Shown here piece by piece: positions 30,341-40,466 of a DNA stretch of 64,000 nt. The position numbers were made by a program, and so were the translations under genes. Numbering within the stretch: the stretch's first letter is position 1; every line of letters starts with the position of its first letter. The notes below the pieces were generated by a model, which saw nothing but the letters and a program-made list of their open reading frames with translations, searched no databases and was not told the origin of the DNA. This DNA comes from Verrucomicrobiales bacterium (GTDB lineage Bacteria > Verrucomicrobiota > Verrucomicrobiia > Verrucomicrobiales > Akkermansiaceae): assembly GCA_038235225.1 (NCBI GenBank), contig JBBSUD010000002.1:16270-80269 (forward strand), in the 5' to 3' direction.

Positions 30341-31861
30341 TCACCGCTGCCATGCGATGATTTTTTTCATGATGGATGCGATGAATGGCGTGAGGCGGGC
30401 CTTGTTATAGAGATCCCCGGTTTTACGGATCGCCTCGGCTTGGGTGGGGTAGGGATGGATGCAGTTCGCGATTTTCCCGAGGCCGATGCCTTGGGTCATG
30501 GCAATGGAAATGGACGCAATCATATCCCCCGCGTTGGCGGCGACGATGGTGGCGCCGAGGATCTCGTCGCTGCCTTTCCTGACATGGATGCGGACGAATC
30601 CCTCGGTTTCGCCTTCGAGGATCGCTCGGTCCACACCGGACATCGGCTGGGTGAAGGTATCAACTTCGATGTCTTGTTCTCTGGCTTCTGCAGAGTTCAG
30701 CCCGATGCGTGCAAGCTCCGGCGAGGTATAAGTACACCATGGAATGACGAGGTCGCTATGTTTGACGCGACCGAAAAACAACGCATTGCGGACCACGGCG
30801 CGGGCCATGAAATCGGCGGCATGGGTGAATTGATAGGGAGAGCAGATATCGCCTGCGGCGAAGATGCGTTTGTGGGTGGTGCGGAAACGGTCGTCGATGG
30901 TCACGCCCTTTTTCGTGTGCTCCACACCGGCTTTTTCGAGATCGAGTCCTTCCACATTGGGTGCGCGGCCGGTCGCCACCAGGAGTTGATCCACGGTGAT
31001 GTCATAGCTGTCGTCTCCAGATTCCACGCGCATGCGGATGCCGCCATTGCCGCCGGGTGATAGTTTCAGTTTCCTGCCCGAGCCGAGGATTTTCACAGCA
31101 TCTCGGACAAGGTGCTTCTCGATAATTGCCGCGGCATCCGGCTCTTCCTTGTCGAGTATGCCGGATGAGGATTTGACGAGATAGGCTTCGGAACCGAGAC
31201 GCGCGAAAGCCTGCGCCATTTCGCAGCCGATAGGTCCCGCACCGATGACGCCGATGCGCTTCGGGCGTTCCGTTAGCGAGAAGATCGTTTCGTTGGTATG
31301 ATAGGAAACCGTGTCGAGTCCCTCGATCGGCGGCGCGGAAGCGCGTGCGCCGGTGCAGATGACAGCTTTGGAAAAATGCAGCTTCGCTCCGGCGACTTCG
31401 ATATGGGAGGAATCGATAAACTTTCCTTGGCCCAAGAATACGTAGATGCCGAGCGAGGTGTAGCGCTTCACCGAATCGTGGGGTGAAATGTCGCTGCGGA
31501 GCTTTCTCATGCGTTGCATGACTTTTGCGAAATCCACCTCGGTCCCTAGCGGCACGTTCACGCCGAAGCCCCCGGCATCTCGCACGGCGGCGGCGGCGCG
31601 GGCCGAGCTGATGATCGCCTTCGATGGCACGCAGCCGACATTCAGGCAGTCGCCACCCATGAACTGGCGCTCGATCAACGCGACCTTCGCCCCCAGCCCC
31701 GCCGCGGCGGATGCGGTGACAAGCCCGGCGGTGCCAGCACCTATGACGACGAGATCGTATTTCCCGGAAGGCACCGGGTTCGTCCAATCGGCGGGATGAA
31801 CGTTGGCCACGAGCTTCGCATTATACTCGTCATCGGGCTCCATACGGTGGGGCGTGCTCAT
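30341..31861 (-). CDS. MerA/LpdA-like FAD-dependent pyridine nucleotide-disulfide oxidoreductase (no C-terminal Cys-Cys)
   Basis: VIGAGTAG, GGDCLNVGCVPSK, GAGPIGCEMAQ, ATGRAPN, IFAAGD and IHPYPTQAE. Confidence 0.9.
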   Translation of the reverse strand: MSTPHRMEPDDEYNAKLVANVHPADWTNPVPSGKYDLVVIGAGTAGLVTASAAAGLGAKVALIERQFMGGDCLNVGCVPSKAIISSARAAAAVRDAGGFGVNVPLGTEVDFAKVMQRMRKLRSDISPHDSVKRYTSLGIYVFLGQGKFIDSSHIEVAGAKLHFSKAVICTGARASAPPIEGLDTVSYHTNETIFSLTERPKRIGVIGAGPIGCEMAQAFARLGSEAYLVKSSSGILDKEEPDAAAIIEKHLVRDAVKILGSGRKLKLSPGGNGGIRMRVESGDDSYDITVDQLLVATGRAPNVEGLDLEKAGVEHTKKGVTIDDRFRTTHKRIFAAGDICSPYQFTHAADFMARAVVRNALFFGRVKHSDLVIPWCTYTSPELARIGLNSAEAREQDIEVDTFTQPMSGVDRAILEGETEGFVRIHVRKGSDEILGATIVAANAGDMIASISIAMTQGIGLGKIANCIHPYPTQAEAIRKTGDLYNKARLTPFIASIMKKIIAWQR

Positions 31862-32469
31862 GTTTCCGTTATGTTCGGTCCTTCGGAATCATCAATTTTT
31901 CCCGACAGCGCGCGCTTGGCGATTTTGGTGATCCAGACGGTTACGATGATGGTGGCGACCAACCCGATTCCATAAAACACCTTCTGTGAGGTCGTCGTTT
32001 CGCTGGCGGCAACTTTAGCGATCGAGCCGAGATAAACATAAAGAATAGTCACCGGAAGCATGCCGATCCACGATGCACCGACGGCCTGCCAAAAGCCGAT
32101 CTTCGTGAGGCCGAGCGCGTAGTTGAGAAATGTGAATGGGAAAACGGGCGATAGCCTTAGCAGCATAATCATCTTCCAGCCTTCGCGACCGACCGCTTCG
32201 TCGATTGCCTTGAATTTCGGCTTATCCTTTAGTTTTTTATCGATCCAATTCCGCAGTGCGAACCGACCTAGCAGGAAGCTCACCGCGGCGGCGAGAGTTG
32301 AGGCGACGGAAACGAGCAGGGTTCCCTCTACCAGTCCGAAAATCGCCCCGGCGGAGAGTGTCAGGATACTGCCCGGCACGAATGCGACGGTTGCGCCCAC
32401 GTAAAGTAGGACAAAAAGCACGGGCGCCCAGATGCCTTGGGCCTGGACCCAATCGAGGATGTGTTGCAT
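31858..32469 (-). CDS. TVP38/TMEM64 (DedA/VTT) family membrane protein
   Basis: VPGSILTLSAGAIFG...LLRLSPVFPFTFLNYALGLTKI...IGMLP.TILYVYLG. Confidence 0.92.
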   Translation of the reverse strand: MQHILDWVQAQGIWAPVLFVLLYVGATVAFVPGSILTLSAGAIFGLVEGTLLVSVASTLAAAVSFLLGRFALRNWIDKKLKDKPKFKAIDEAVGREGWKMIMLLRLSPVFPFTFLNYALGLTKIGFWQAVGASWIGMLPVTILYVYLGSIAKVAASETTTSQKVFYGIGLVATIIVTVWITKIAKRALSGKIDDSEGPNITET

Positions 32470-32475
32470 GCGGAG

Positions 32476-33777
32476 TTATAGGTAAGTTATGGATCGAACC
32501 CGCGCGATCCACCGGGGCGGGACGCTCAGGAAATAGGCAGCAAGCATCAATTGATGTCGAAGGAATGTGCGCACGATGCCGCCCGTTTCCCAGCGCCGCG
32601 GCGATGTCAAAGCTGCCTGCGGCGCCGTCCGGACCGGGCCAAGCCGCTTGAGCCGGCGGACCAGATGGAGGTCCTCCATCGCCGGCCAATCGGGAAATCC
32701 TCCGAGGTGGCGGAAGATGCTCCGGCGGATGAACAACCCTTGGTCGCCATAAGGCATACCTAGCAGATCGCAGCGCAGATGCACGAGTGACTCGATCAAG
32801 GGCGCGGCAGCGAGATCTCCCGCAAGCTGGAATCGGAATGCGCCTGCGCTCGTCCCGGGCTTCTGCAATATCCGGCCCACTACTTCACCATAGTCTAGCG
32901 GCGGCAAAGTATCCGCATGGAGAAACAACAGGAACTCGCCCGTCGCCATGGCGGCGGCCACATTCATTTGCGTGGACCGCCCTTTCGGAGTTTCGATCAC
33001 GCGGACGCCCGCTTTTCCGGCTATCGCTTTGGTTTGGTCCGTGCTGCCTCCGTCCGCGATGATGATTTCGTGCGGCGGCGATTCCAAGAGCCGCTCGAGA
33101 AGTATGGAAATCCAAGTAGCCTCATTCAGTGTGGGAATGATGACAGAGAGCGAATTTCCCACGGTGAGCGCGGCATTTGCAGCCGGGAGATCGTCCGGCG
33201 TGTCCACATCCGGGCGGGCGTCCAAAAGAGCGACATGCGCTCCGCACGCGGCGGCGGCAGCCAGCGATTGATTTAGAACCTGCGGTCCGCCCCATTCGAT
33301 GTTAGTGAAAATTCCGGGACACGGTTTATTCAGACCGACGAGATAATAGCCGCCATCCGCCGCGGGGCCGAAAACCAGATCCGCGCGTTCCAGCGCTTGG
33401 AATGCCTTCGCGAGAAGCGGCTCGTCGATCGACGGGCAGTCGGTTCCGGTGATGACCACGCGGCGGGCGCCATCGGCAAACGCCTGCTCCACTGCGGCGT
33501 GCAATCGGGCTCCCAAATCGCCATTTCCCTGCACCCGGCAATCGATATCTCCCAACCATATCTTTCCTTCGACGGCGGTCCCGCCTTCCAAGCGAATCTG
33601 CAAGCGGGTGCCGGGATGCATCATCGCGTAAGAAGAGGCCCGACCTATGGCATGCCGTGCGAGGCGGTCGTGGAAATCCGCAGCACCAATCGTGCCCAGC
33701 GCGGGGATCAATCGTGTCTTGTTCCGGCCTTCACAGGGAAGGCGCGTCATCACGATGATGGTGTCTTGCCGCTTCAC
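32476..33777 (-). CDS. Fused arsenosugar-cluster transferases: TIGR04282 (DUF2064) plus TIGR04283 (GT2)
   Basis: N-half GRNKTRL...QGNGDLGARL...TGTDCP...GPAADGGYYLVGL...DVDTPDDL. C-half SVIIPTLNE..DGGSTD..GRSTQMN..LFLHADT..PYGDQGLFIRR..MED..SPRRWE. The GTG start at 33777 overlaps the DUF547 stop. Confidence 0.88.
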   Translation of the reverse strand: MKRQDTIIVMTRLPCEGRNKTRLIPALGTIGAADFHDRLARHAIGRASSYAMMHPGTRLQIRLEGGTAVEGKIWLGDIDCRVQGNGDLGARLHAAVEQAFADGARRVVITGTDCPSIDEPLLAKAFQALERADLVFGPAADGGYYLVGLNKPCPGIFTNIEWGGPQVLNQSLAAAAACGAHVALLDARPDVDTPDDLPAANAALTVGNSLSVIIPTLNEATWISILLERLLESPPHEIIIADGGSTDQTKAIAGKAGVRVIETPKGRSTQMNVAAAMATGEFLLFLHADTLPPLDYGEVVGRILQKPGTSAGAFRFQLAGDLAAAPLIESLVHLRCDLLGMPYGDQGLFIRRSIFRHLGGFPDWPAMEDLHLVRRLKRLGPVRTAPQAALTSPRRWETGGIVRTFLRHQLMLAAYFLSVPPRWIARVRSITYL

Positions 33778-34565
33778 TGTTTGTTGAGATCCCAATTGTA
33801 GTCGGTATATTTGATGCCGAGTCCGCCGCGGAGGATGACTTTGCCTTGTTCATCGTTGAAAAGCGGTGCCACGAATTTTTCGACAGAGCCGGACTTGCCG
33901 GTAAAGTCCTGTTTGAACCACTTGAAGATCGGCGAGAGATAGAGCACTCCGCTTTTAGCATCGACTCGGTTCTTCGAGCTATCGCCCAAGAAAATCCTGC
34001 CTTGCTCATTGAGTTGAGGATCGAGCTTGGAGGCTTGGTAGGCTTCCGCACGCAGGGACGGACAACCGATCGATGCACAATTAATGGCGAAGTGGATGCG
34101 CGGGTCATTGAACTTCGGTCGGAGCAGATCGTTCTCGATATAGTCGAGGGTTTGCTTCTTTCCGAACAGCCGGACGACGGGTTGCTTCCATGGCCCGCTG
34201 AAAAGGCCGCCGATGTCTTTGATGCTGTCCACCGGATAGTGATCGATTACGAGCTTGAGAGTCGCGGCGTTATAGAGATTGATGAGATATGCCATCCGCT
34301 CATCGCGGGGCCAGCCGTTGAAGCTGGATTCGGACACGGCAGCAAGCGAATCCAGATAAACATCGAGCGGTTTTGGATTCCTTTTCAATCCTGCGTAATC
34401 GACCTTCTTGCCTTTCACATGCGCCCCGAGAATCAAAGTTAAGGCGGAGTGCGATCGGTCGAAATCCTGGCGGGTGTTGGCAATGGTTTGGAGCTCCTGT
34501 GCCTGCGATACCACGGTGAGTATGGGGAACAAAGCGAGAGCGGTGGCGAATGTGAGATTTTTCAT
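33774..34565 (-). CDS. DUF547 domain secreted protein
   Basis: Signal peptide; AYLINLYNA.T, LDYIENDLLRP, DPRIHFAINCASIGCP and YLSPIFKWFKQDF. Confidence 0.9.
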   Translation of the reverse strand: MKNLTFATALALFPILTVVSQAQELQTIANTRQDFDRSHSALTLILGAHVKGKKVDYAGLKRNPKPLDVYLDSLAAVSESSFNGWPRDERMAYLINLYNAATLKLVIDHYPVDSIKDIGGLFSGPWKQPVVRLFGKKQTLDYIENDLLRPKFNDPRIHFAINCASIGCPSLRAEAYQASKLDPQLNEQGRIFLGDSSKNRVDAKSGVLYLSPIFKWFKQDFTGKSGSVEKFVAPLFNDEQGKVILRGGLGIKYTDYNWDLNKQ

Positions 34566-34571
34566 GATGAT

Positions 34572-35531
34572 TCAGGCATTAGCTGTTTCCAGCGCGCCGC
34601 TGCAACTGCTGCCGTGGCCGGCGGTGCAGCCGAAGCAATGATTTGCGGTGAGGATCGGGAGGTCCGCCATCGAGTCCGGAGTGATGTCCCAGAGATAAAG
34701 TTTTTGGTCATTGCGCTTTTGTTGCATGCGGAGCATTTGGTTGAAATCGCAGTCGAAGACCTCGCCCTCGTAACCGATATTGATGGTGGACCGGCACATA
34801 AGTCCCCCGACCGTGGCGGGGTTGAAACTATTCGCCAGCAATTCCATATAGTAATCCCACTGTCCGTGCTCGCGGAGGTCCACCGCGAAGCGGGCGATCG
34901 GGAGATTCGTGATCGCAAAGAGGCGGGTGAAAACGATGCCGTAGCGTTTCTTTAGCTCGTCCTTGTAGTCCGCTTCAAGTTCTGCTTGGTCGGGCGGCAG
35001 CTTCGCGCCGATGGGATTGTAAACGAGGGTCAGCGGGAGGCGGGTGCCATAGCCAGCGGCATTGAGTTTCTTCAGCGCGGAAATGCTCTTTTGGAAAACT
35101 CCGTTGCCGCGCTGGGAATCGACATTGTCTTCCAGATAGCAGGGCAGGGATGCGACAACTTCCACTTCATGCCGGGCGAGAAACTCCGGCAGATAGGCAT
35201 GGCTTTTCGTCTCGATGATCGTGAGATTGTTTCGGTCGATGACATGCGAACCGACCGAGCGGGCCGTCTCAACGAAATACCTGAAATGCTCGCTGATTTC
35301 AGGCGCGCCGCCGGTGATGTCCACGGTCGCGGGCCGATGTTCCACAATCCAGGCGCCGACTTTGCGGGCAGTTTCCCGATCCATCATCTCGGTGCGGGTC
35401 GGGCCGGCATCGACGTGGCAGTGGGTGCAGGTCTGGTTGCATTTGCGACCGACATTGATCTGCAGCGTCTCGAAGCGGCCGCGATCCAGCGGAACTTTGT
35501 TTTGGTGGAGAAGTGTCTGGAAGTTATTCAT
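34572..35531 (-). CDS. arsS: Arsenosugar biosynthesis radical SAM protein ArsS (TIGR04167-type)
   Basis: TLQINVGRKCNQTCTHCHVDAGP (CxxxCxxC), DITGGAPE, ASLPCY, LVYNP, GLMCR, DCDFNQML and HCFGCTAGHGSSC. Confidence 0.92.
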   Translation of the reverse strand: MNNFQTLLHQNKVPLDRGRFETLQINVGRKCNQTCTHCHVDAGPTRTEMMDRETARKVGAWIVEHRPATVDITGGAPEISEHFRYFVETARSVGSHVIDRNNLTIIETKSHAYLPEFLARHEVEVVASLPCYLEDNVDSQRGNGVFQKSISALKKLNAAGYGTRLPLTLVYNPIGAKLPPDQAELEADYKDELKKRYGIVFTRLFAITNLPIARFAVDLREHGQWDYYMELLANSFNPATVGGLMCRSTINIGYEGEVFDCDFNQMLRMQQKRNDQKLYLWDITPDSMADLPILTANHCFGCTAGHGSSCSGALETANA

Positions 35532-35581: not shown

Positions 35582-36409
35582 CTATTCGGATATGTTTTTC
35601 CGGAGCGGCGGGATGCGGGTGAATGCTTTTGCAGATGGCGGATCCTCATCGAGTTTCGAGAAGACGCGCTGGCAGGAATCGCTCTCGAAGAAGGCGTCGC
35701 AGCAGGCGGATTCGAGGATTTCTCCGTGGCCGTTGTCCGTGCAGAGGCAGGCGATCCAGTCGGTCAGGCGGCGGGCTTGGTCGAGATTGTGGGTGACGAG
35801 GATGACGCTGCGGGTGGCTCGCATACTCAGAATCCCCGCCTCCACGGCTTCCGCAGCGCGCGGATCGAGGGCGCTCGTCGGTTCGTCCATGAGCACGATT
35901 TCCGGATCGACGGCCAAGGTGCGGGCAAGACATAGCTGCTGCTGCTGGCCGATGGACAGACGGCGCGCGGGTTCCGTTAGCCGGTCCTTCACCTCATCCC
36001 AGAGAGCGGCTTCGCGGAGCGATTTTTCGATAAGCTCGCCGCGGTCGCGTTTGTTTAGTCGGCGGAGCCGACGGGCACCGAAGATGACGTTATCTGCGAT
36101 GCTGGCGGGAAACACGGCGGGCTGTTGGAATATCATGCCGATGCGCTCGCGGAGGGCGTCGGGATCGACGGCGCGGTCCAGGATTTCGCAGCCATGGAAG
36201 CGGATGCTGCCGGTGACCCGGAAGCCGGGCTGCAGCTCCAGCAGTCGGTTGATGGATCGCAGCAAAGTGCTCTTGCCCGCGCCGGACGGGCCGAGGATGC
36301 CGAGCACTTGTCCGGCTTCGAGCGTTAGATTGACCGACCCGATGATGGCGCGGCCGCCCACGGAGACGCCGAGGTTGCGGATTTCCAGGATGGGGGATCG
36401 ATCAGACAT
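35582..36409 (-). CDS. pstB: PstB-like ABC transporter ATPase with Cys-rich C-terminus
   Basis: GPSGAGKSTLLRSINRL, IGMIFQQP, LREAALWDEVKDRL, LSIGQQQ.LCLAR, MDEPTSALDP and VTHN. Confidence 0.85.
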   Translation of the reverse strand: MSDRSPILEIRNLGVSVGGRAIIGSVNLTLEAGQVLGILGPSGAGKSTLLRSINRLLELQPGFRVTGSIRFHGCEILDRAVDPDALRERIGMIFQQPAVFPASIADNVIFGARRLRRLNKRDRGELIEKSLREAALWDEVKDRLTEPARRLSIGQQQQLCLARTLAVDPEIVLMDEPTSALDPRAAEAVEAGILSMRATRSVILVTHNLDQARRLTDWIACLCTDNGHGEILESACCDAFFESDSCQRVFSKLDEDPPSAKAFTRIPPLRKNISE

Positions 36410-37256
36410 GGTTGGCGGCATCGTGGAATTTCCTGCGGAAGGGTATAGCTAACAGACTTGCCAGGGTAACCAAGGAAACAAGCACCAGCGCGGTGCCCCA
36501 GAGATTGGTCCGGCTGCTTTCCTGAAACGAATCCTGGGCGAGGATGAATATGTGATAGGGAAGCGCGAGTATGGGTTGTTCCTTGATGCCGATGGGGATG
36601 GTGGCGCCGGAAAAGATGGTGGCGACGAAAAGGATCGGCGCCGTTTCCCCGGCGGCTCTGGCGAGGCCGAGCAAGGTGCCGCTAACGAGCGAGGAAGCGC
36701 AGTGTGGCATGATGATACTTCGGACGATCCGTCCGCGGCGCAATCCCAATGCGAACGCGCTATCGAGATACCGCGGCTCGATCGCGCCGATCCGCTGGGC
36801 GGCCGCTATGGCGATGGTGGGAACGATCATGATGCCTAGCAGGATGCCGCCCGCGAGCCAGGATTTCCCCCAGTCGAAGATGCGGGTGAAGACTAGCAGA
36901 CCGAGGATACCGAAGATGATGGAAGGTATCGCATTGAATAACTGAAGCACGAACCCTAACAGGCGCTGGCGGCGGGATCCGAGTGGCAGGAGAAATGAAT
37001 GGACCAATGCAAGTGAGATGGCGATGGGCAGCGCGACCGCCGCGGCGGTGGAGATGAGGATGATGGTGCCCACGATCTGCCAGAGAATGCCGCCGCTCGC
37101 ACCGGCTTCCGAGGTGGCGGTGGAAATGAAGTTCCAATCCACCACGTCCCGGCCTTTCCAAATGAGGACTGCCGCTACCGTGAGGGAAAACAACAACACC
37201 ACCGATGCGGCGGCAGCGGTGAGGATCGACGTCAATGATGCTAACGATTTTCTCAT
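36402..37256 (-). CDS. pstA: PstA-like ABC permease
   Basis: IPSIIFGILGLLVF, LAGGILLGIMIVPTI, LGLARAAGETAPILF and LPYHIFILA. Confidence 0.88.
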   Translation of the reverse strand: MRKSLASLTSILTAAAASVVLLFSLTVAAVLIWKGRDVVDWNFISTATSEAGASGGILWQIVGTIILISTAAAVALPIAISLALVHSFLLPLGSRRQRLLGFVLQLFNAIPSIIFGILGLLVFTRIFDWGKSWLAGGILLGIMIVPTIAIAAAQRIGAIEPRYLDSAFALGLRRGRIVRSIIMPHCASSLVSGTLLGLARAAGETAPILFVATIFSGATIPIGIKEQPILALPYHIFILAQDSFQESSRTNLWGTALVLVSLVTLASLLAIPFRRKFHDAANHV

Positions 37257-38167
37257 GAGGAAATTCTCCCGATGCGGCGCAGCAGGGTGCCGGTGGCGTC
37301 GAAAAGCGCGGATAGAACAAGTAGAATCAGTCCGAGAGAAAGCATGGCTCCCCAATGCAGCGGCGTGCCGAGCGCAATGTGGGTTTCGGGTCCGCCGAGC
37401 TTGCTGGTAAGTGTTTGGCCGGGCTCGATGAGCGGCCGGAGGCTGAAGAGTTTTTCGGGAAACTGATTGTCCAATCGGCCCACCACGAGGAAGACGGCGA
37501 TCGTTTCACCTAGAGCGCGGCCGGTGCCTAACAAGGCAGCGCCGGTGATGCCGGGCCATGCCTGGGGAAGCACCACATGTATTACTGTTTCCGCACGGCT
37601 CAGCGCCAGACCGCGGGCGGCGATGCGCTGCTCCTGCGGGACTCCGCGGAGTGCGTCTTCGGAGAATGTGGTGACGGTTGGGAGTATCATCACCGCGAGC
37701 AGGACGCCGGCGGTTAGAAGCATGTCGCCACTGAGTATATCGAATGCGATTAGCCGCTCGGCCATCCACTCGCGCAGGAAAATGACACCGAAAAGGCCGT
37801 AAACAACCGATGGCACGGCAGCCAAAAACTCGACGGCGGTCTTCACCGGCAACCGCAGCCGGGGAGTGAGAAATTCGGATATGAAAACCGCTGCCGCGAT
37901 GCCGACCGGTGCGGCGAGGACGAGGGCGATCACCGCGACGACGAGACTGCCATAGATCATGCCCGCGGCACCGAAGATGTTGTCCCGATAGAACCACTCG
38001 CGTCCTTTGACCAGCTCGCTACCGATCTTGGAAATCGCGGGCCACGCCTGCTGGATCCAGAGAGCGAGAACCGCGAGCAGGCCGAGGAAAAATCCGCTGG
38101 AAATCGTCCATACGCCGACAGTGACGGCATCGGGCCGCCGCCTCGCTGTCAGCTCGTGAGCGCTCAT
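37253..38167 (-). CDS. pstC: PstC-like ABC permease
   Basis: MIYGSLVVA..APVGIAAAVFISE, VEFLAAVPSVVYGLFG, AVMILPT, GRALGETIAV and TLTSKL. Confidence 0.88.
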   Translation of the reverse strand: MSAHELTARRRPDAVTVGVWTISSGFFLGLLAVLALWIQQAWPAISKIGSELVKGREWFYRDNIFGAAGMIYGSLVVAVIALVLAAPVGIAAAVFISEFLTPRLRLPVKTAVEFLAAVPSVVYGLFGVIFLREWMAERLIAFDILSGDMLLTAGVLLAVMILPTVTTFSEDALRGVPQEQRIAARGLALSRAETVIHVVLPQAWPGITGAALLGTGRALGETIAVFLVVGRLDNQFPEKLFSLRPLIEPGQTLTSKLGGPETHIALGTPLHWGAMLSLGLILLVLSALFDATGTLLRRIGRISS

Positions 38168-39021
38168 TGTTTCTTAAGATCCGCTAGAGAAAGATAGCCG
38201 TGCTTGTGAACCAGCTTCTGACCTTCCGGGCCTAGCAGGAAATCGATCAGTGCCTTGGCATGACCGGCTGGCTCGCCATTGGTGATGACCCATAGCGAAC
38301 GGCTCAGCGGATAGTCACCCGCGAAGATATGTGCTGCGGTCGGTTCTACGATTTTGTCGTCATCAAGTTCCACGGATAGGGCGAAAACCTTGATTCCATC
38401 GACCCACGCGGCGGACAGTTGGGAAAGCGCGCCGCGGCTGCCGGCCACCTTGTTGCGCGCTTCCTCATTCGCTCCGACTTCTGGGTGCGCGACGGACGGC
38501 GCTTTGTCGGCCTTGCCGTAGAGCCAGTTCGCGAAGACCTCCCAAGTGCCGCGTCCCGGCTCCTTGTTGAAAAATGCGATCCTGCGGTCGGGGCCGCCGA
38601 TCTGCTTCCAGTTGGTTACTTTTTTCTCGTAGATCCGTTGCATGGTTTTGCGGGAAATCGATTTCACCCCGCCATCCCAGACATCTTTGGAAACGATCAT
38701 TGCCACCGCGTCCTCGCCGATTTTCACCGGTGTGAAAACGATGTTCGGATACTTCATATGGTCGGCTTCATTGAGCGGGCGGGATGACATGGCCATATCC
38801 ACCCGGCCGTCGCCGAGTGCGGAAATCCCGCCGGAACTGCCGCCTTGGGTATCCACTTGGATGGTGATGTTCTTTTCCTTTTTAAGGATTTCCGCAGCTT
38901 CGGAAACCACGGGATTCACCGTGGTCGATCCATTGACGCGAACGATGTCTTGTGCGGAGACAAACGTACTCGCTGTGGCGAAAGCGAATGCGAGTAAAGG
39001 GAGGGATTGCATGAATTTCAT
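38164..39021 (-). CDS. pstS: PstS-like periplasmic oxyanion-binding protein
   Basis: Signal peptide; GSTTV, GGSSGGI, MSSRPL, IGEDAVA, IYEKKVTNWKQIGGPD and DYPLSRSLW. Confidence 0.85.
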   Translation of the reverse strand: MKFMQSLPLLAFAFATASTFVSAQDIVRVNGSTTVNPVVSEAAEILKKEKNITIQVDTQGGSSGGISALGDGRVDMAMSSRPLNEADHMKYPNIVFTPVKIGEDAVAMIVSKDVWDGGVKSISRKTMQRIYEKKVTNWKQIGGPDRRIAFFNKEPGRGTWEVFANWLYGKADKAPSVAHPEVGANEEARNKVAGSRGALSQLSAAWVDGIKVFALSVELDDDKIVEPTAAHIFAGDYPLSRSLWVITNGEPAGHAKALIDFLLGPEGQKLVHKHGYLSLADLKKQ

Positions 39022-39040: not shown

Positions 39041-40204
39041 TCAGCAGCAGCCGCCGGCGTCGCAGCAGTTCGATGCGGCGGTGGTGACATGATAATCGCG
39101 GCCCTTGGTTTCCTGCGGGTGGCGGACAGCGGTGCGGTTGCAATCGAAGGGCGCCGCGTCTGCCAGCGGTATGTCTGTTAGCGGATCGATGAAAGAGAAG
39201 TAGCCGGAATACGGCGCTTTTTTGTATAAGTTGTATGTCTTGTCGCAGACCGCATAGCGCTTGCCGCGCTCCATGGCGTGGCCGTCGTCAACGAGGACTT
39301 TCAGGAAAGGGCCGTTGTAAATGACCGCCTGATTCCGCTCGAAGCACGGACCTTGTTTTCCTTTCCACGCTTGGATCGTGACTGAGCGGAACTCGATCCC
39401 TTCGACCGTTTGCCATGGCGTTTCGTCGCGCTTCAGGATTTCGATTCCATGAAATCCCGCATCTGCAAACGCTTTGAGAAACCCTTCCTCGGTATAGGCG
39501 CCGCTGATGCAGCCGCTCCAGAGATGGGGATCGTCCTGGAGATGGCTCGGGATTTCCTCGTCGGATACGATGTCGGAAATCACCGCCCGGCCGCCAACTT
39601 TCAGGACGCGGAAGATCTCCTCGAAAAGCTGACGCTTCAGGTGGTTCTCCACGAGATTGAGCACGCAGTTAGAGACTACGGCGTCGATGCTGTCGCTGGC
39701 GACGAGCGGGTGCTTCACGCGGAGATCGGCGGCGAGCGCGTCGGCCGCGAGATAGGAATTCGCGCTGGAAATCGGATTCCGGGCGAGTTCGCGGTCGAGA
39801 ATTTCCAAGTCGAGCGCGAGATCTTGGATGCGGCCCTTGCGGAACTCGACATTCGCGTGGCCGATATTTTCCGCGACGATCGGCGCATTCCGGCGGGCGA
39901 CTTCCAGCATGTCGTCGGTCATGTCCACGCCGATGACGCGGCCGGTCGGGCCGACGACCTGGGACGCGATGAAGCAGATTTTCCCGGTCCCCGAGCCGAG
40001 ATCGAGCACGGTCTCGCCGGGATGCAGGTGCTTCGACGGGTCGCCGCAGCCGTAGTCCTTTTCGATGACCTCGGCCGGAATGGCCTTGAGAAACTGCGGA
40101 TCGTAATCGACCGGGCAGCACAAAGCGGCCTCGGGGGCGTGGGCGGCGGCGGCGTAGCGATCGCGGGTGGCGGCTTCGGACGAGGTGCTGGCTGGGGCGA
40201 TCAT
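39041..40204 (-). CDS. arsM: Arsenite S-adenosylmethionine methyltransferase (ArsM)
   Basis: LCCP, YGCGDP, VLDLGSGTG, VIGVDMT, VSNCVLNL and WSGCISGA, i.e. the four conserved ArsM Cys positions. Ends in CCDAGGCC. Confidence 0.9.
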   Translation of the reverse strand: MIAPASTSSEAATRDRYAAAAHAPEAALCCPVDYDPQFLKAIPAEVIEKDYGCGDPSKHLHPGETVLDLGSGTGKICFIASQVVGPTGRVIGVDMTDDMLEVARRNAPIVAENIGHANVEFRKGRIQDLALDLEILDRELARNPISSANSYLAADALAADLRVKHPLVASDSIDAVVSNCVLNLVENHLKRQLFEEIFRVLKVGGRAVISDIVSDEEIPSHLQDDPHLWSGCISGAYTEEGFLKAFADAGFHGIEILKRDETPWQTVEGIEFRSVTIQAWKGKQGPCFERNQAVIYNGPFLKVLVDDGHAMERGKRYAVCDKTYNLYKKAPYSGYFSFIDPLTDIPLADAAPFDCNRTAVRHPQETKGRDYHVTTAASNCCDAGGCC

Positions 40205-40466
40205 GGTTGTGGGAAAATCTGGCCGGGATGCTGGCTTGGGCATCGGTTCGCTTGGGATAACGAAATCTCCAGATATAACGGATTTGCGTGCGCAAAAATC
40301 GGATTGCTCGCTGGAGGATCGCCATGCGTCCCGGTCGGCAGGAAATCTGAGAGCACGCGAACGCCCGCTCTATTCCTCGAAGATCCGGTTTGCCGCTTGT
40401 CGGCGGGATTTGTCCGGAGACTCCGCCGGGCGTGGACACGCGGATACCGGTGTGGAATCGTGGAAG

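What the first reader, a model, noticed from the sequence alone, without database searches (positions are those of the whole stretch)
38545..38565. PstS paralogue has a remodelled phosphate-binding loop (KEPGRGT)
Seen: KEPGRGT where PstS proteins have R-x-x-x-S-G-T, while GSTT and GSSGG are retained. Known: E. coli PstS binds Pi through T10, S38, D56, R135, S139, G140 and T141. Inference: by my manual alignment R135 becomes K and S139 becomes R, which should change selectivity, e.g. towards arsenate, methylarsenate/dimethylarsinate or an organophosphate donor.
Basis: partly seen in the sequence, partly recalled or inferred. Interest (0 to 1): 0.65.

Follow-up and report, generated by a model that had tools for sequence, protein, structure and literature searches.

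The report
Arsenic-linked PstS with rebuilt anion loop
The odd KEPGRGT loop is real and is the fixed hallmark of a rare, undescribed branch of phosphate-binding proteins whose transporter genes almost always sit beside arsenic-sensing or arsenic-methylating genes, so it probably changes how the cell tells phosphate from arsenate, in a direction only a binding assay can show.

Summary
Observation confirmed. Window 38545-38565 (-) encodes KEPGRGT. It lies in a 285-aa secreted PstS-like protein and aligns without gaps to the R-x-x-x-S-G-T loop of solved S-type PstS proteins (R->K, D->P, S->R). All other S-type phosphate ligands are kept, as are the Arg/Glu pairs of the PstC/PstA channel. The loop is not a one-off: 118 of the 120 closest homologues (>=59% identity, several phyla) carry it, and Glu187 co-varies with it. 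The protein is an accessory paralogue. The genome also has a canonical PstS, and 47 of 50 carrier genomes have at least two.

Of 69 related loci with enough upstream sequence, 59 have ArsR, ArsM, ArsS or a related radical SAM gene next to pstS'CAB. None has PhoU. A sister clade (KEPGRGTR) is also ArsM/ArsR-linked. An older K...RGT clade in Nitrospinota is not, so the K/R swap predates the arsenic link.

No solved PstS has this loop, and I found no paper describing it. It is best read as an arsenic-regulated Pst-type oxyanion importer with a rewired pocket. I favour arsenate-excluding phosphate uptake (0.45) over deliberate arsenate uptake for ArsM/ArsS (0.3).

The parts
38545..38565 (-). KEPGRGT loop (K153-T159), the remodelled counterpart of the PstS R-x-x-x-S-G-T anion loop at the N-terminus of a helix
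   Evidence: Translation. Gap-free alignment to 4gd5, 1twy, 4ecf and 4n13 loops. Invariant in the family. In the AF2 model a helix starts at residue 158.
38164..39021 (-). pstS' gene: 285-aa secreted S-type PstS-like binding protein (signal peptide residues 1-23)
   Evidence: PF12849 E=1.3e-36. TIGR02136 scores 175.3 bits, below its cut-off of 206.6. AF2 model pLDDT 90.9. Best Foldseek matches are 4gd5, 4q8r, 4n13 and 1twy.
38920..38931 (-). GSTT (G31-T34), first anion-binding loop, retained
   Evidence: Aligned to GSTS of 4gd5. G31, S32, T33 and T34 are invariant.
38827..38841 (-). GSSGG (G61-G65), second anion-binding loop, retained
38455..38484 (-). PEVGANEEAR (P180-R189), a family signature. 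E187 is Glu in all three K...RGT clades and variable in canonical PstS, so it probably belongs to the rewired charge network (inference).
   Evidence: Invariant columns. Group comparison.
37253..38167 (-). pstC', start overlapping the pstS' stop (ATGA); keeps the GRALGET motif (E. coli R237/E241)
   Evidence: TIGR02138 219.5 bits, above its cut-off. Alignment to 9k3s/9k3x PstC. Sequence.
36402..37256 (-). pstA' (likely start MRKSLASL, ATGA overlap with pstC'); keeps R-x-A-G-E-T (E. coli R220/E224). E. coli S130 is Ala here.
35582..36421 (-). pstB' ATPase with a cysteine-rich C-terminal region (ACLC...ACC...C)
   Evidence: TIGR00972 259 bits, below its cut-off of 343. Five Cys in the last 60 residues in 37 of 69 family PstB' proteins.
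39041..40243 (-). Long-form ArsM-like methyltransferase directly upstream (20-nt gap to pstS')
   Evidence: NF040538 331 bits and NF008823 206 bits, both below their cut-offs. Orthologues lie next to pstS' in 34 of 82 fetched loci (83 with the window).
34572..35531 (-). arsS, arsenosugar-type radical SAM enzyme, 50 nt downstream of pstB'
   Evidence: TIGR04167 426.8 bits, above its cut-off of 300.
30341..34565 (-). Rest of the operon: DUF547, TIGR04282/TIGR04283 fusion, VTT/DedA-like protein, MerA-like flavoprotein disulfide reductase

Best explanation
KEPGRGT is the invariant signature of a distinct subfamily of S-type PstS binding proteins (PstS'). Each comes with its own PstC'A'B'.

Shown:
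- The protein keeps the PstS fold.
- It keeps both Ser/Thr/Gly anion loops, the Ser at the E. coli D56 position, and the Asp104-Arg241 pair of S-type binders.
- The channel's two Arg/Glu pairs are kept.
- The third anion loop has R->K, D->P and S->R, together with a co-varying Glu187.
- The module is an accessory paralogue, lacks PhoU, and is encoded next to an ArsR with three invariant cysteines and/or ArsM plus a radical SAM enzyme.

Inferred:
- Arg157 takes over the charge-neutralising role of the lost arginine from a new position, held by Glu187, giving a re-shaped pocket for a tetrahedral oxyanion.
- The system is switched on by arsenic and imports phosphate while rejecting arsenate better than the host's ordinary S-type PstS, which lacks the discriminating low-barrier hydrogen bond. 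This keeps phosphate supply going and limits arsenate entry in arsenic-handling bacteria.
For: Loop identity and conservation.

Fold.

Retained S-type ligands (S80, D104, R241, T33/T34, S62): read against PMC13614923.

Channel Arg/Glu pairs conserved: with PMC12976172.

Accessory paralogue: (47 of 50 carrier genomes have >=2 PBP_like_2 proteins).

Arsenic linkage:
- Among 82 fetched loci plus the window (83): ArsR in 41, ArsM in 34, ArsS in 16 and another radical SAM in 14.
- 59 of 69 loci with enough flank have such a gene close by.
- The sister clade KEPGRGTR has ArsM at 14 of 40 loci and ArsR at 8 of 40.
- The ArsR has three invariant Cys in 27 of 27 sequences.

Why phosphate fits every context: about half of the loci are ArsR-pstS'CAB alone. 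Ten of 25 such genomes have no ArsM-like gene at E<=1e-20. In those, arsenic-induced phosphate uptake makes sense and arsenic-induced arsenate uptake does not.

Precedent: the ArsR1-repressed, As(III)-induced pst1 locus of Agrobacterium tumefaciens 5A (PMC7965956) and pst genes in arsenic islands (PMC3834237).
Against: - No binding data exist for any member.
- The module is translationally coupled between arsM and arsS in several phyla. 39 of 50 carrier genomes have the long-form ArsM, against 6 of 301 in a phylum sample. This suggests a tie to arsenic methylation beyond shared regulation.
- The Cys-rich PstB' tail would fit product feedback by As(III) on an arsenic importer.
- This window has no ArsR gene.
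- The K...RGT loop itself predates the arsenic link.
Confidence: 0.45

Rival explanations
1. Arsenic acquisition. PstS' binds arsenate (or another arsenic oxyanion), and PstS'CAB imports it on purpose to feed reduction, ArsM methylation and ArsS or other radical SAM chemistry, producing arsenosugars, arsenolipids or other organoarsenicals. ArsR gives substrate induction. The Cys-rich PstB' tail gives feedback inhibition by cytosolic As(III).
For: - pstS'CAB sits between arsM and arsS or another radical SAM gene, with overlapping or near-touching genes. This holds in three different cluster architectures and several phyla.
- The sister clade is also ArsM-linked.
- PstS' carriers mostly have the long ArsM (39/50), while ArsM carriers mostly lack PstS' (5 of 6 in the phylum sample).
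- The residues changed are those that touch the anion.
- PstB' is Cys-rich.
- The Streptomyces arseno-organic gene cluster also carries an arsenate-induced, binding-protein-dependent ABC transporter and ArsR-like regulators (PMC4943196).
Against: - Half of the loci are ArsR-pstS'CAB only, and 10 of 25 such genomes show no ArsM-like gene. An arsenic-induced arsenate importer would be harmful there.
- No arsenate reductase is among the frequent neighbours.
- Arsenate already enters through ordinary phosphate transporters.
- Co-occurrence may reflect shared islands and habitat.
Confidence: 0.3
2. Neutral or compensatory arginine relocation. K...R-G-T is an alternative way to build an ordinary S-type phosphate site with no useful change in selectivity. 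The arsenic link is purely regulatory: a second Pst system under ArsR instead of PhoB.
For: - R->K and S->R always change together, with partial reversions inside the grade.
- The arrangement is old and also occurs in non-arsenic Nitrospinota modules.
- A proven Pi binder (SphX) tolerates loss of the Arg.
- All other ligands are kept.
Against: - The whole heptad plus W160, N36 and the PEVGANEEAR segment are invariant across phyla at only ~60% overall identity. That argues for selection on a specific pocket.
- The TIGR02136 score falls below its cut-off.
Confidence: 0.15
3. PstS' binds a methylated arsenical (MAs(V) or DMAs(V)) or a phosphate ester rather than a bare oxyanion. The invariant Trp160 would provide a hydrophobic wall.
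For: - W160 replaces the Arg that follows S-G-T in canonical and sister clades.
- ArsS uses a dimethylarsenic substrate (established knowledge of ArsS).
- A descendant clade has lost the oxyanion motifs altogether.
Against: - Both Ser/Thr/Gly oxyanion loops and the channel's paired arginines are intact, which fits a small tetrahedral anion.
- ArsM would be unnecessary if DMAs were imported.
- The sister clade has Arg, not Trp, and is still ArsM-linked.
Confidence: 0.07

Closest known systems
S-type PstS phosphate-binding proteins (C. perfringens PBP-1 4gd5/4q8r, V. cholerae 1twy, B. burgdorferi 4n13, Synechocystis SphX; TIGR02136)
   Same: Same fold and size. Same GST(T/S) and GSxG loops, Ser at the D56 position, Asp-Arg pair, and partner PstCAB (PMC13614923).
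   Different: The third loop is K-E-P-G-R-G-T-W instead of R-x-x-x-S-G-T-R. There is an extra invariant PEVGANEEAR segment. The score is below the TIGR02136 cut-off. The genes are arsenic-linked rather than Pho-linked.
ArsR1-repressed, As(III)-inducible pst1/phoB1 locus of Agrobacterium tumefaciens 5A, and pst genes of arsenic islands
   Same: A second Pst system tied to arsenic sensing rather than phosphate starvation (PMC7965956, PMC3834237).
   Different: Those loci include phoU and phoB and sit in aio/ars islands of Proteobacteria. Here there is no phoU or phoB, the binding loop is remodelled, PstB' is Cys-rich, and the module is often fused into arsM/arsS operons. I could not check the loop sequence of the 5A PstS1.
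E. coli PstS / PfluDING (D-type, low-barrier hydrogen-bond discrimination against arsenate)
   Same: Periplasmic oxyanion binder of a Pst ABC importer. Loop positions R135, D137, S139, G140 and T141 are homologous.
   Different: D56 is Ser here, so the known discrimination mechanism is absent. R135, D137 and S139 are all replaced.
AioX / ArrX arsenic-oxyanion binding proteins and the PhnD-type transporter of the Streptomyces arseno-organic cluster
   Same: Periplasmic binding proteins associated with arsenic metabolism. In the Streptomyces case the ABC importer lies inside an organoarsenical gene cluster with ArsR regulators (PMC4943196).
   Different: These belong to a different binding-protein family (PhnD type, from my own knowledge). 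PstS' hit only PBP_like_2, SBP_bac_11, PBP_like and SBP_bac_1 in Pfam, with no phosphonate-binding (PhnD-type) family.

Membership tests
PstS family (PBP_like_2 / TIGR02136, S-type) | PBP_like_2 domain and type II periplasmic binding fold | tested here: met
   PF12849 E=1.3e-36. AF2 pLDDT 90.9. Foldseek top hits are PstS structures at E~1e-23.
PstS family (PBP_like_2 / TIGR02136, S-type) | Score above the curated TIGR02136 cut-off | tested here: not met
   175.3 bits against a cut-off of 206.6.
PstS family (PBP_like_2 / TIGR02136, S-type) | First and second anion loops (GST[ST], GSxG) and the S-type Ser/Asp/Arg residues | tested here: met
   G31-T34, S62, S80, D104 and R241 are invariant and align to 4gd5.
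PstS family (PBP_like_2 / TIGR02136, S-type) | Third anion loop R-x-x-x-S-G-T | tested here: not met
   K-E-P-G-R-G-T.
PstS family (PBP_like_2 / TIGR02136, S-type) | Encoded with PstC, PstA and PstB; channel Arg/Glu pairs present | tested here: met
   PMC12976172.
PstS family (PBP_like_2 / TIGR02136, S-type) | High-affinity, selective binding of inorganic phosphate | not testable with these tools
   Needs ITC or DSF on purified protein.
Pho-regulon Pst operon (pstSCAB-phoU) | phoU in the operon or Pho-type regulation | tested here: not met
   No PhoU among the window's operon genes, in annotated related loci or among frequent neighbours. I did not search for a Pho box.
ArsR-controlled arsenic-island Pst systems | Adjacent ArsR-family repressor with a metalloid-type cysteine site | tested here: inconclusive
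   Absent from this 64-kb window. Present at 41 of 82 related loci, with three invariant Cys in 27 of 27. Arsenic responsiveness was not tested.
AioX/ArrX (PhnD-type arsenic oxyanion binders) | PhnD-type phosphonate-binding domain | tested here: not met
   Only PBP_like_2, SBP_bac_11, PBP_like and SBP_bac_1 hit in Pfam.

The most novel reading that the evidence does not exclude
PstS'CAB is a dedicated arsenate uptake system. KEPGRGT plus Glu187 form an arsenate-preferring pocket, and bacteria that make arsenosugars, arsenolipids or methylarsenicals use it to acquire arsenic as a raw material. PstB' cysteines would sense the As(III) product.
Probability: 0.3. Interest if true: 0.85.

Novelty: new variant of a known kind. 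Interest (0 to 1): 0.62.

Why it matters
How proteins tell phosphate from arsenate is understood for only one mechanism, the low-barrier hydrogen bond of D-type PstS. This subfamily lacks that mechanism and instead carries a strictly conserved, differently charged pocket, and it occurs almost only beside arsenic genes.

A single set of binding assays on one soluble protein would show which of two things it is. It could be a second natural way to exclude arsenate, which would be useful for biosensors and for understanding phosphorus uptake in arsenic-rich soils. Or it could be the first dedicated arsenic importer, which would change how microbial organoarsenic synthesis is viewed.

The KEPGRGT[WR] motif is also a practical annotation marker. 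These proteins are now labelled simply as phosphate-binding proteins.

Tried and rejected
- **Chance or degenerate pseudogene: rejected.** The loop and about 60 other columns are invariant across phyla.
HMMER alignments to four solved structures are gap-free through the loop.
- **PstS' as the cell's only phosphate binder: rejected.** The genome has a canonical PstS on another contig, and 47 of 50 carriers have at least two.
- **Cys-based arsenite binding as in AioX: rejected.** The protein has no cysteine.
- **Is K...RGT a marker of arsenic linkage in general? No.** The Nitrospinota DKExHRGTR clade has a conserved non-arsenic neighbourhood, and its adjacent methyltransferase is not ArsM-like.
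- **Unbiased neighbour clustering.** I looked for Acr3/ArsB, ArsC and PhoU among frequent neighbours and none appeared. Single-linkage clusters were contaminated by antisense ORFs, so I relied on targeted phmmer labels.
- **Side-chain geometry of Arg157 and Lys153.** Not possible, because model coordinates are not exposed.
- **Literature.** Nine searches returned no paper whose title or abstract describes this loop or subfamily.

Full report
**1. The observation**

The ORF at 38164-39021 on the minus strand encodes a 285-aa protein. Its N-terminus is a typical signal peptide (MKFMQSLPLLAFAFATASTFVSA|QD). Translating 38545-38565 (-) gives KEPGRGT, residues 153-159.

Pfam assigns PBP_like_2 (E=1.3e-36). 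NCBIfam's TIGR02136 (PstS family) scores 175.3 bits, below its cut-off of 206.6.

HMMER alignments to solved PstS proteins run through the loop without gaps. FFNKEPGRGTWEVF aligns to VVSREDGSGTRDAF (4gd5/4q8r), VVTREASSGTRYSF (1twy), LINRAQGSGTRATF (4ecf) and FINRDSSSGSY (4n13). In addition P155 replaces D137, and W160 replaces the Arg that usually follows S-G-T.

An AlphaFold2 model built on a 51-sequence alignment is confident (pLDDT 90.9). It places the loop at the start of a helix. Its best structural matches are short PstS proteins (4gd5, 4q8r, 4n13, 1twy; E about 1e-22).

**2. What kind of PstS it is**

A 2026 study (PMC13614923) separates two types.
- D-type PstS (E. coli type) has an Asp that forms a low-barrier hydrogen bond and discriminates against arsenate.
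- S-type PstS has Ser at that position plus an Asp-Arg pair supporting the Thr/Ser ligands.

The window's protein is S-type. By alignment and family conservation it keeps G31-S32-T33-T34, S62, S80 (the D56 position), D104 and R241. Only the third loop is rebuilt.

The partner permeases keep the residues that bind Pi in the E. coli channel. PstC' has GRALGET (R237/E241) and PstA' has R-x-A-G-E-T (R220/E224) (PMC12976172). The cargo is therefore most likely still a small tetrahedral oxyanion.

**3. It is a family signature**

- Of the 120 best homologues (59-83% identity) from Verrucomicrobiota, Acidobacteriota, Binatia and others, 118 have KEPGRGT.
- In a 51-sequence alignment K153, E154, P155, G156, R157, G158 and W160 are invariant (T159 is conserved in at least 90%). 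So are N36 and most of a second segment, PEVGANEEAR.
- A motif scan of one genome per species found the family in 215 of about 185,600 species.
- Only 2 of 301 genomes sampled across the window's own phylum have it.
- It is an accessory paralogue. The window's genome has a second PBP_like_2 protein with GRNSASGTYGFF followed by a pstC. 47 of 50 carrier genomes have at least two PBP_like_2 proteins.

**4. Evolution of the loop**

A search of 50%-identity representatives and a maximum-likelihood tree show a grade, in this order:
- a canonical R...SGTR clade;
- a DKExHRGTR clade (Nitrospinota and others);
- KEPGRGTR;
- KEPGRGTW (this family);
- a large, well-supported clade with degenerate GxG[VIM]W loops that has often lost GSTT/GSSGG.

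R->K and S->R change together, and a few tips revert. Comparing the groups, Glu187 is Glu in all three K...RGT clades and variable in canonical proteins. I read this as relocation of the charge-neutralising arginine with a new acidic partner. That is an inference, because I could not examine model coordinates.

The Nitrospinota clade sits in a conserved neighbourhood without ArsR, ArsM or PhoU. Its neighbours are a generic methyltransferase, TPR proteins and unknowns. Nitrospina also has a SphX-like canonical PstS. So the K/R swap is older than the arsenic association.

**5. Genomic context**

In the window the order is arsM-like, pstS', pstC', pstA', pstB', arsS, DUF547, TIGR04282/04283 fusion, VTT/DedA, MerA-like flavoprotein. 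All are on the minus strand. The pstS'/pstC' and pstC'/pstA' junctions are ATGA overlaps. The 64-kb window has no ArsR.

I labelled genes with phmmer across 82 related loci, 80 from genomes and 2 from look-ups. The counts below include the window's own operon (83 loci in all):

| Gene | Loci |
|---|---|
| PstC | 81 |
| PstA | 73 |
| PstB | 72 |
| ArsR | 41 |
| ArsM | 34 |
| DUF2064/GT2 | 20 |
| ArsS | 16 |
| Another radical SAM | 14 |
| Metallophosphoesterase (with that radical SAM) | 13 |
| Flavoprotein (with that radical SAM) | 13 |
| Type III PKS | 8 |
| Fatty acyl-AMP ligase | 7 |

- Of 69 loci with at least 1.5 kb upstream, 59 have an ArsR, ArsM, ArsS, radical SAM or MIP gene within -3/+6.5 kb. 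One more has a weak ArsR hit.
- No PhoU, Acr3/ArsB or ArsC family appeared among the frequent neighbours.
- The adjacent ArsR has three invariant cysteines, one N-terminal and a C-terminal GCC, in 27 of 27 sequences. That is compatible with a three-thiolate metalloid site.
- PstB' is cysteine-rich near its C-terminus: five Cys in 37 of 69.
- The KEPGRGTR sister clade, fetched from metagenomes, is also ArsM-linked (14 of 40) and ArsR-linked (8 of 40) despite short contigs.
- Of 25 carrier genomes without an adjacent ArsM, 14 encode a close orthologue of the window's long ArsM elsewhere, and 10 have no ArsM-like hit at E<=1e-20.
- In a 301-genome phylum sample only 6 have that ArsM, and 5 of those lack PstS'.

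**6. Interpretation**

Established here: PstS' is a conserved, arsenic-gene-linked, Pho-independent accessory Pst-type system. Its binding protein has a specifically rebuilt anion loop.

Not established: what it binds. Two readings compete.

*Phosphate uptake that works in the presence of arsenate.*
- It fits every context, including stand-alone ArsR-pstS'CAB units in genomes with no ArsM.
- It has precedents: the ArsR1-controlled pst1 locus of A. tumefaciens 5A (PMC7965956) and arsenic islands carrying pst genes (PMC3834237).
- It would make sense in lineages whose ordinary PstS is S-type and lacks the known discrimination device.

*Deliberate arsenate uptake for ArsM/ArsS chemistry.*
- It fits the tight operon embedding in three architectures.
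- It fits the asymmetry of co-occurrence and the Cys-rich ATPase.
- The Streptomyces arseno-organic cluster offers a partial parallel with its own arsenate-induced binding-protein transporter (PMC4943196).

I give 0.45 and 0.30 respectively, 0.15 to a selectively neutral relocation, and 0.07 to methylated arsenicals or phosphate esters.

**7. Novelty**

No solved PstS has this loop. Nine full-text searches returned no paper whose title or abstract describes the loop or the subfamily. Sources label the proteins simply as phosphate-binding proteins.

Other agents of this scan noted the same module in other genomes. Those notes are not independent evidence, but they agree with the distribution found here.

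I class it as a new variant of a known kind. One binding experiment on a small soluble protein would decide between an ordinary and a remarkable function.

Noticed in passing
L011, L015, L016, L018, L019, L021, L029, L031, L080 and others: ArsR genes just upstream of pstS': The ArsR clade next to pstS'CAB has exactly three invariant cysteines: one before helix 1 (xDCxxxLKAL) and a C-terminal LDFGCC pair. This arrangement differs from the classical ELCVCD site.
   Followed up: partly
window 35582-35760 (-), C-terminal part of pstB': PstB' replaces the usual C-terminal strands with ACLC...ESACCD...SC. Five Cys occur in the last 60 residues in 37 of 69 family members, and fewer in Binatia and some others.
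   Followed up: partly
L013, L034, L038, L059, L066, L070, L073, L081 (Thermoanaerobaculia): A larger conserved cluster: fatty acyl-AMP ligase, type III PKS, ICMT/PEMT-like methyltransferase, FAD-binding protein, DUF2064/GT2, ArsM, pstS'CAB, a non-ArsS radical SAM enzyme, a metallophosphoesterase and a flavoprotein. It looks like a gene cluster for an unknown lipid-like organoarsenical.
   Followed up: partly
Proteins P0129-P0215 (for example P0143, P0148, P0179): A large, well-supported sister clade of PstS-like proteins has degenerate GxG[VIM]W loops and has often lost GSTT/GSSGG. These probably no longer bind phosphate-type anions. Their context is unknown because the contigs are short.
   Followed up: no
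L087, L089, L132-L135 (Nitrospinota): The DKExHRGTR PstS-like protein with its own PstCAB sits in a strongly conserved module with a generic methyltransferase, proteins of about 430, 260 and 810 aa without Pfam hits, and a TPR protein. Function unknown. Nitrospina gracilis also has a SphX-like PstS elsewhere.
   Followed up: partly
L092-L131 (KEPGRGTR clade, metagenomes): The binding proteins have lipoprotein-type signal peptides (LAGC). In most loci phmmer labelled only one permease ORF (PstC or PstA), so these operons may have a fused or single permease.
   Followed up: no
G174:C43:295395-296183 (a same-order relative): The only other PstS' homologue in the 301-genome phylum sample has an in-frame TAG. 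That genome has no long-form ArsM hit, so the gene may be decaying.
   Followed up: no
L040 8315-10828 and L047 8648-10834: The open frame containing pstS' extends about 450-560 codons upstream. This is either an N-terminal fusion or simply a stop-free GC-rich leader.
   Followed up: no
window 39041-40243 (-): The ArsM here is a 400-aa long form ending in CCDAGGCC. Its best NCBIfam model is the arsinothricin-type ArsM (NF040538, 331 bits, below the 500 cut-off), not the arsenosugar ArsM model (NF038099, 134 bits).
   Followed up: no
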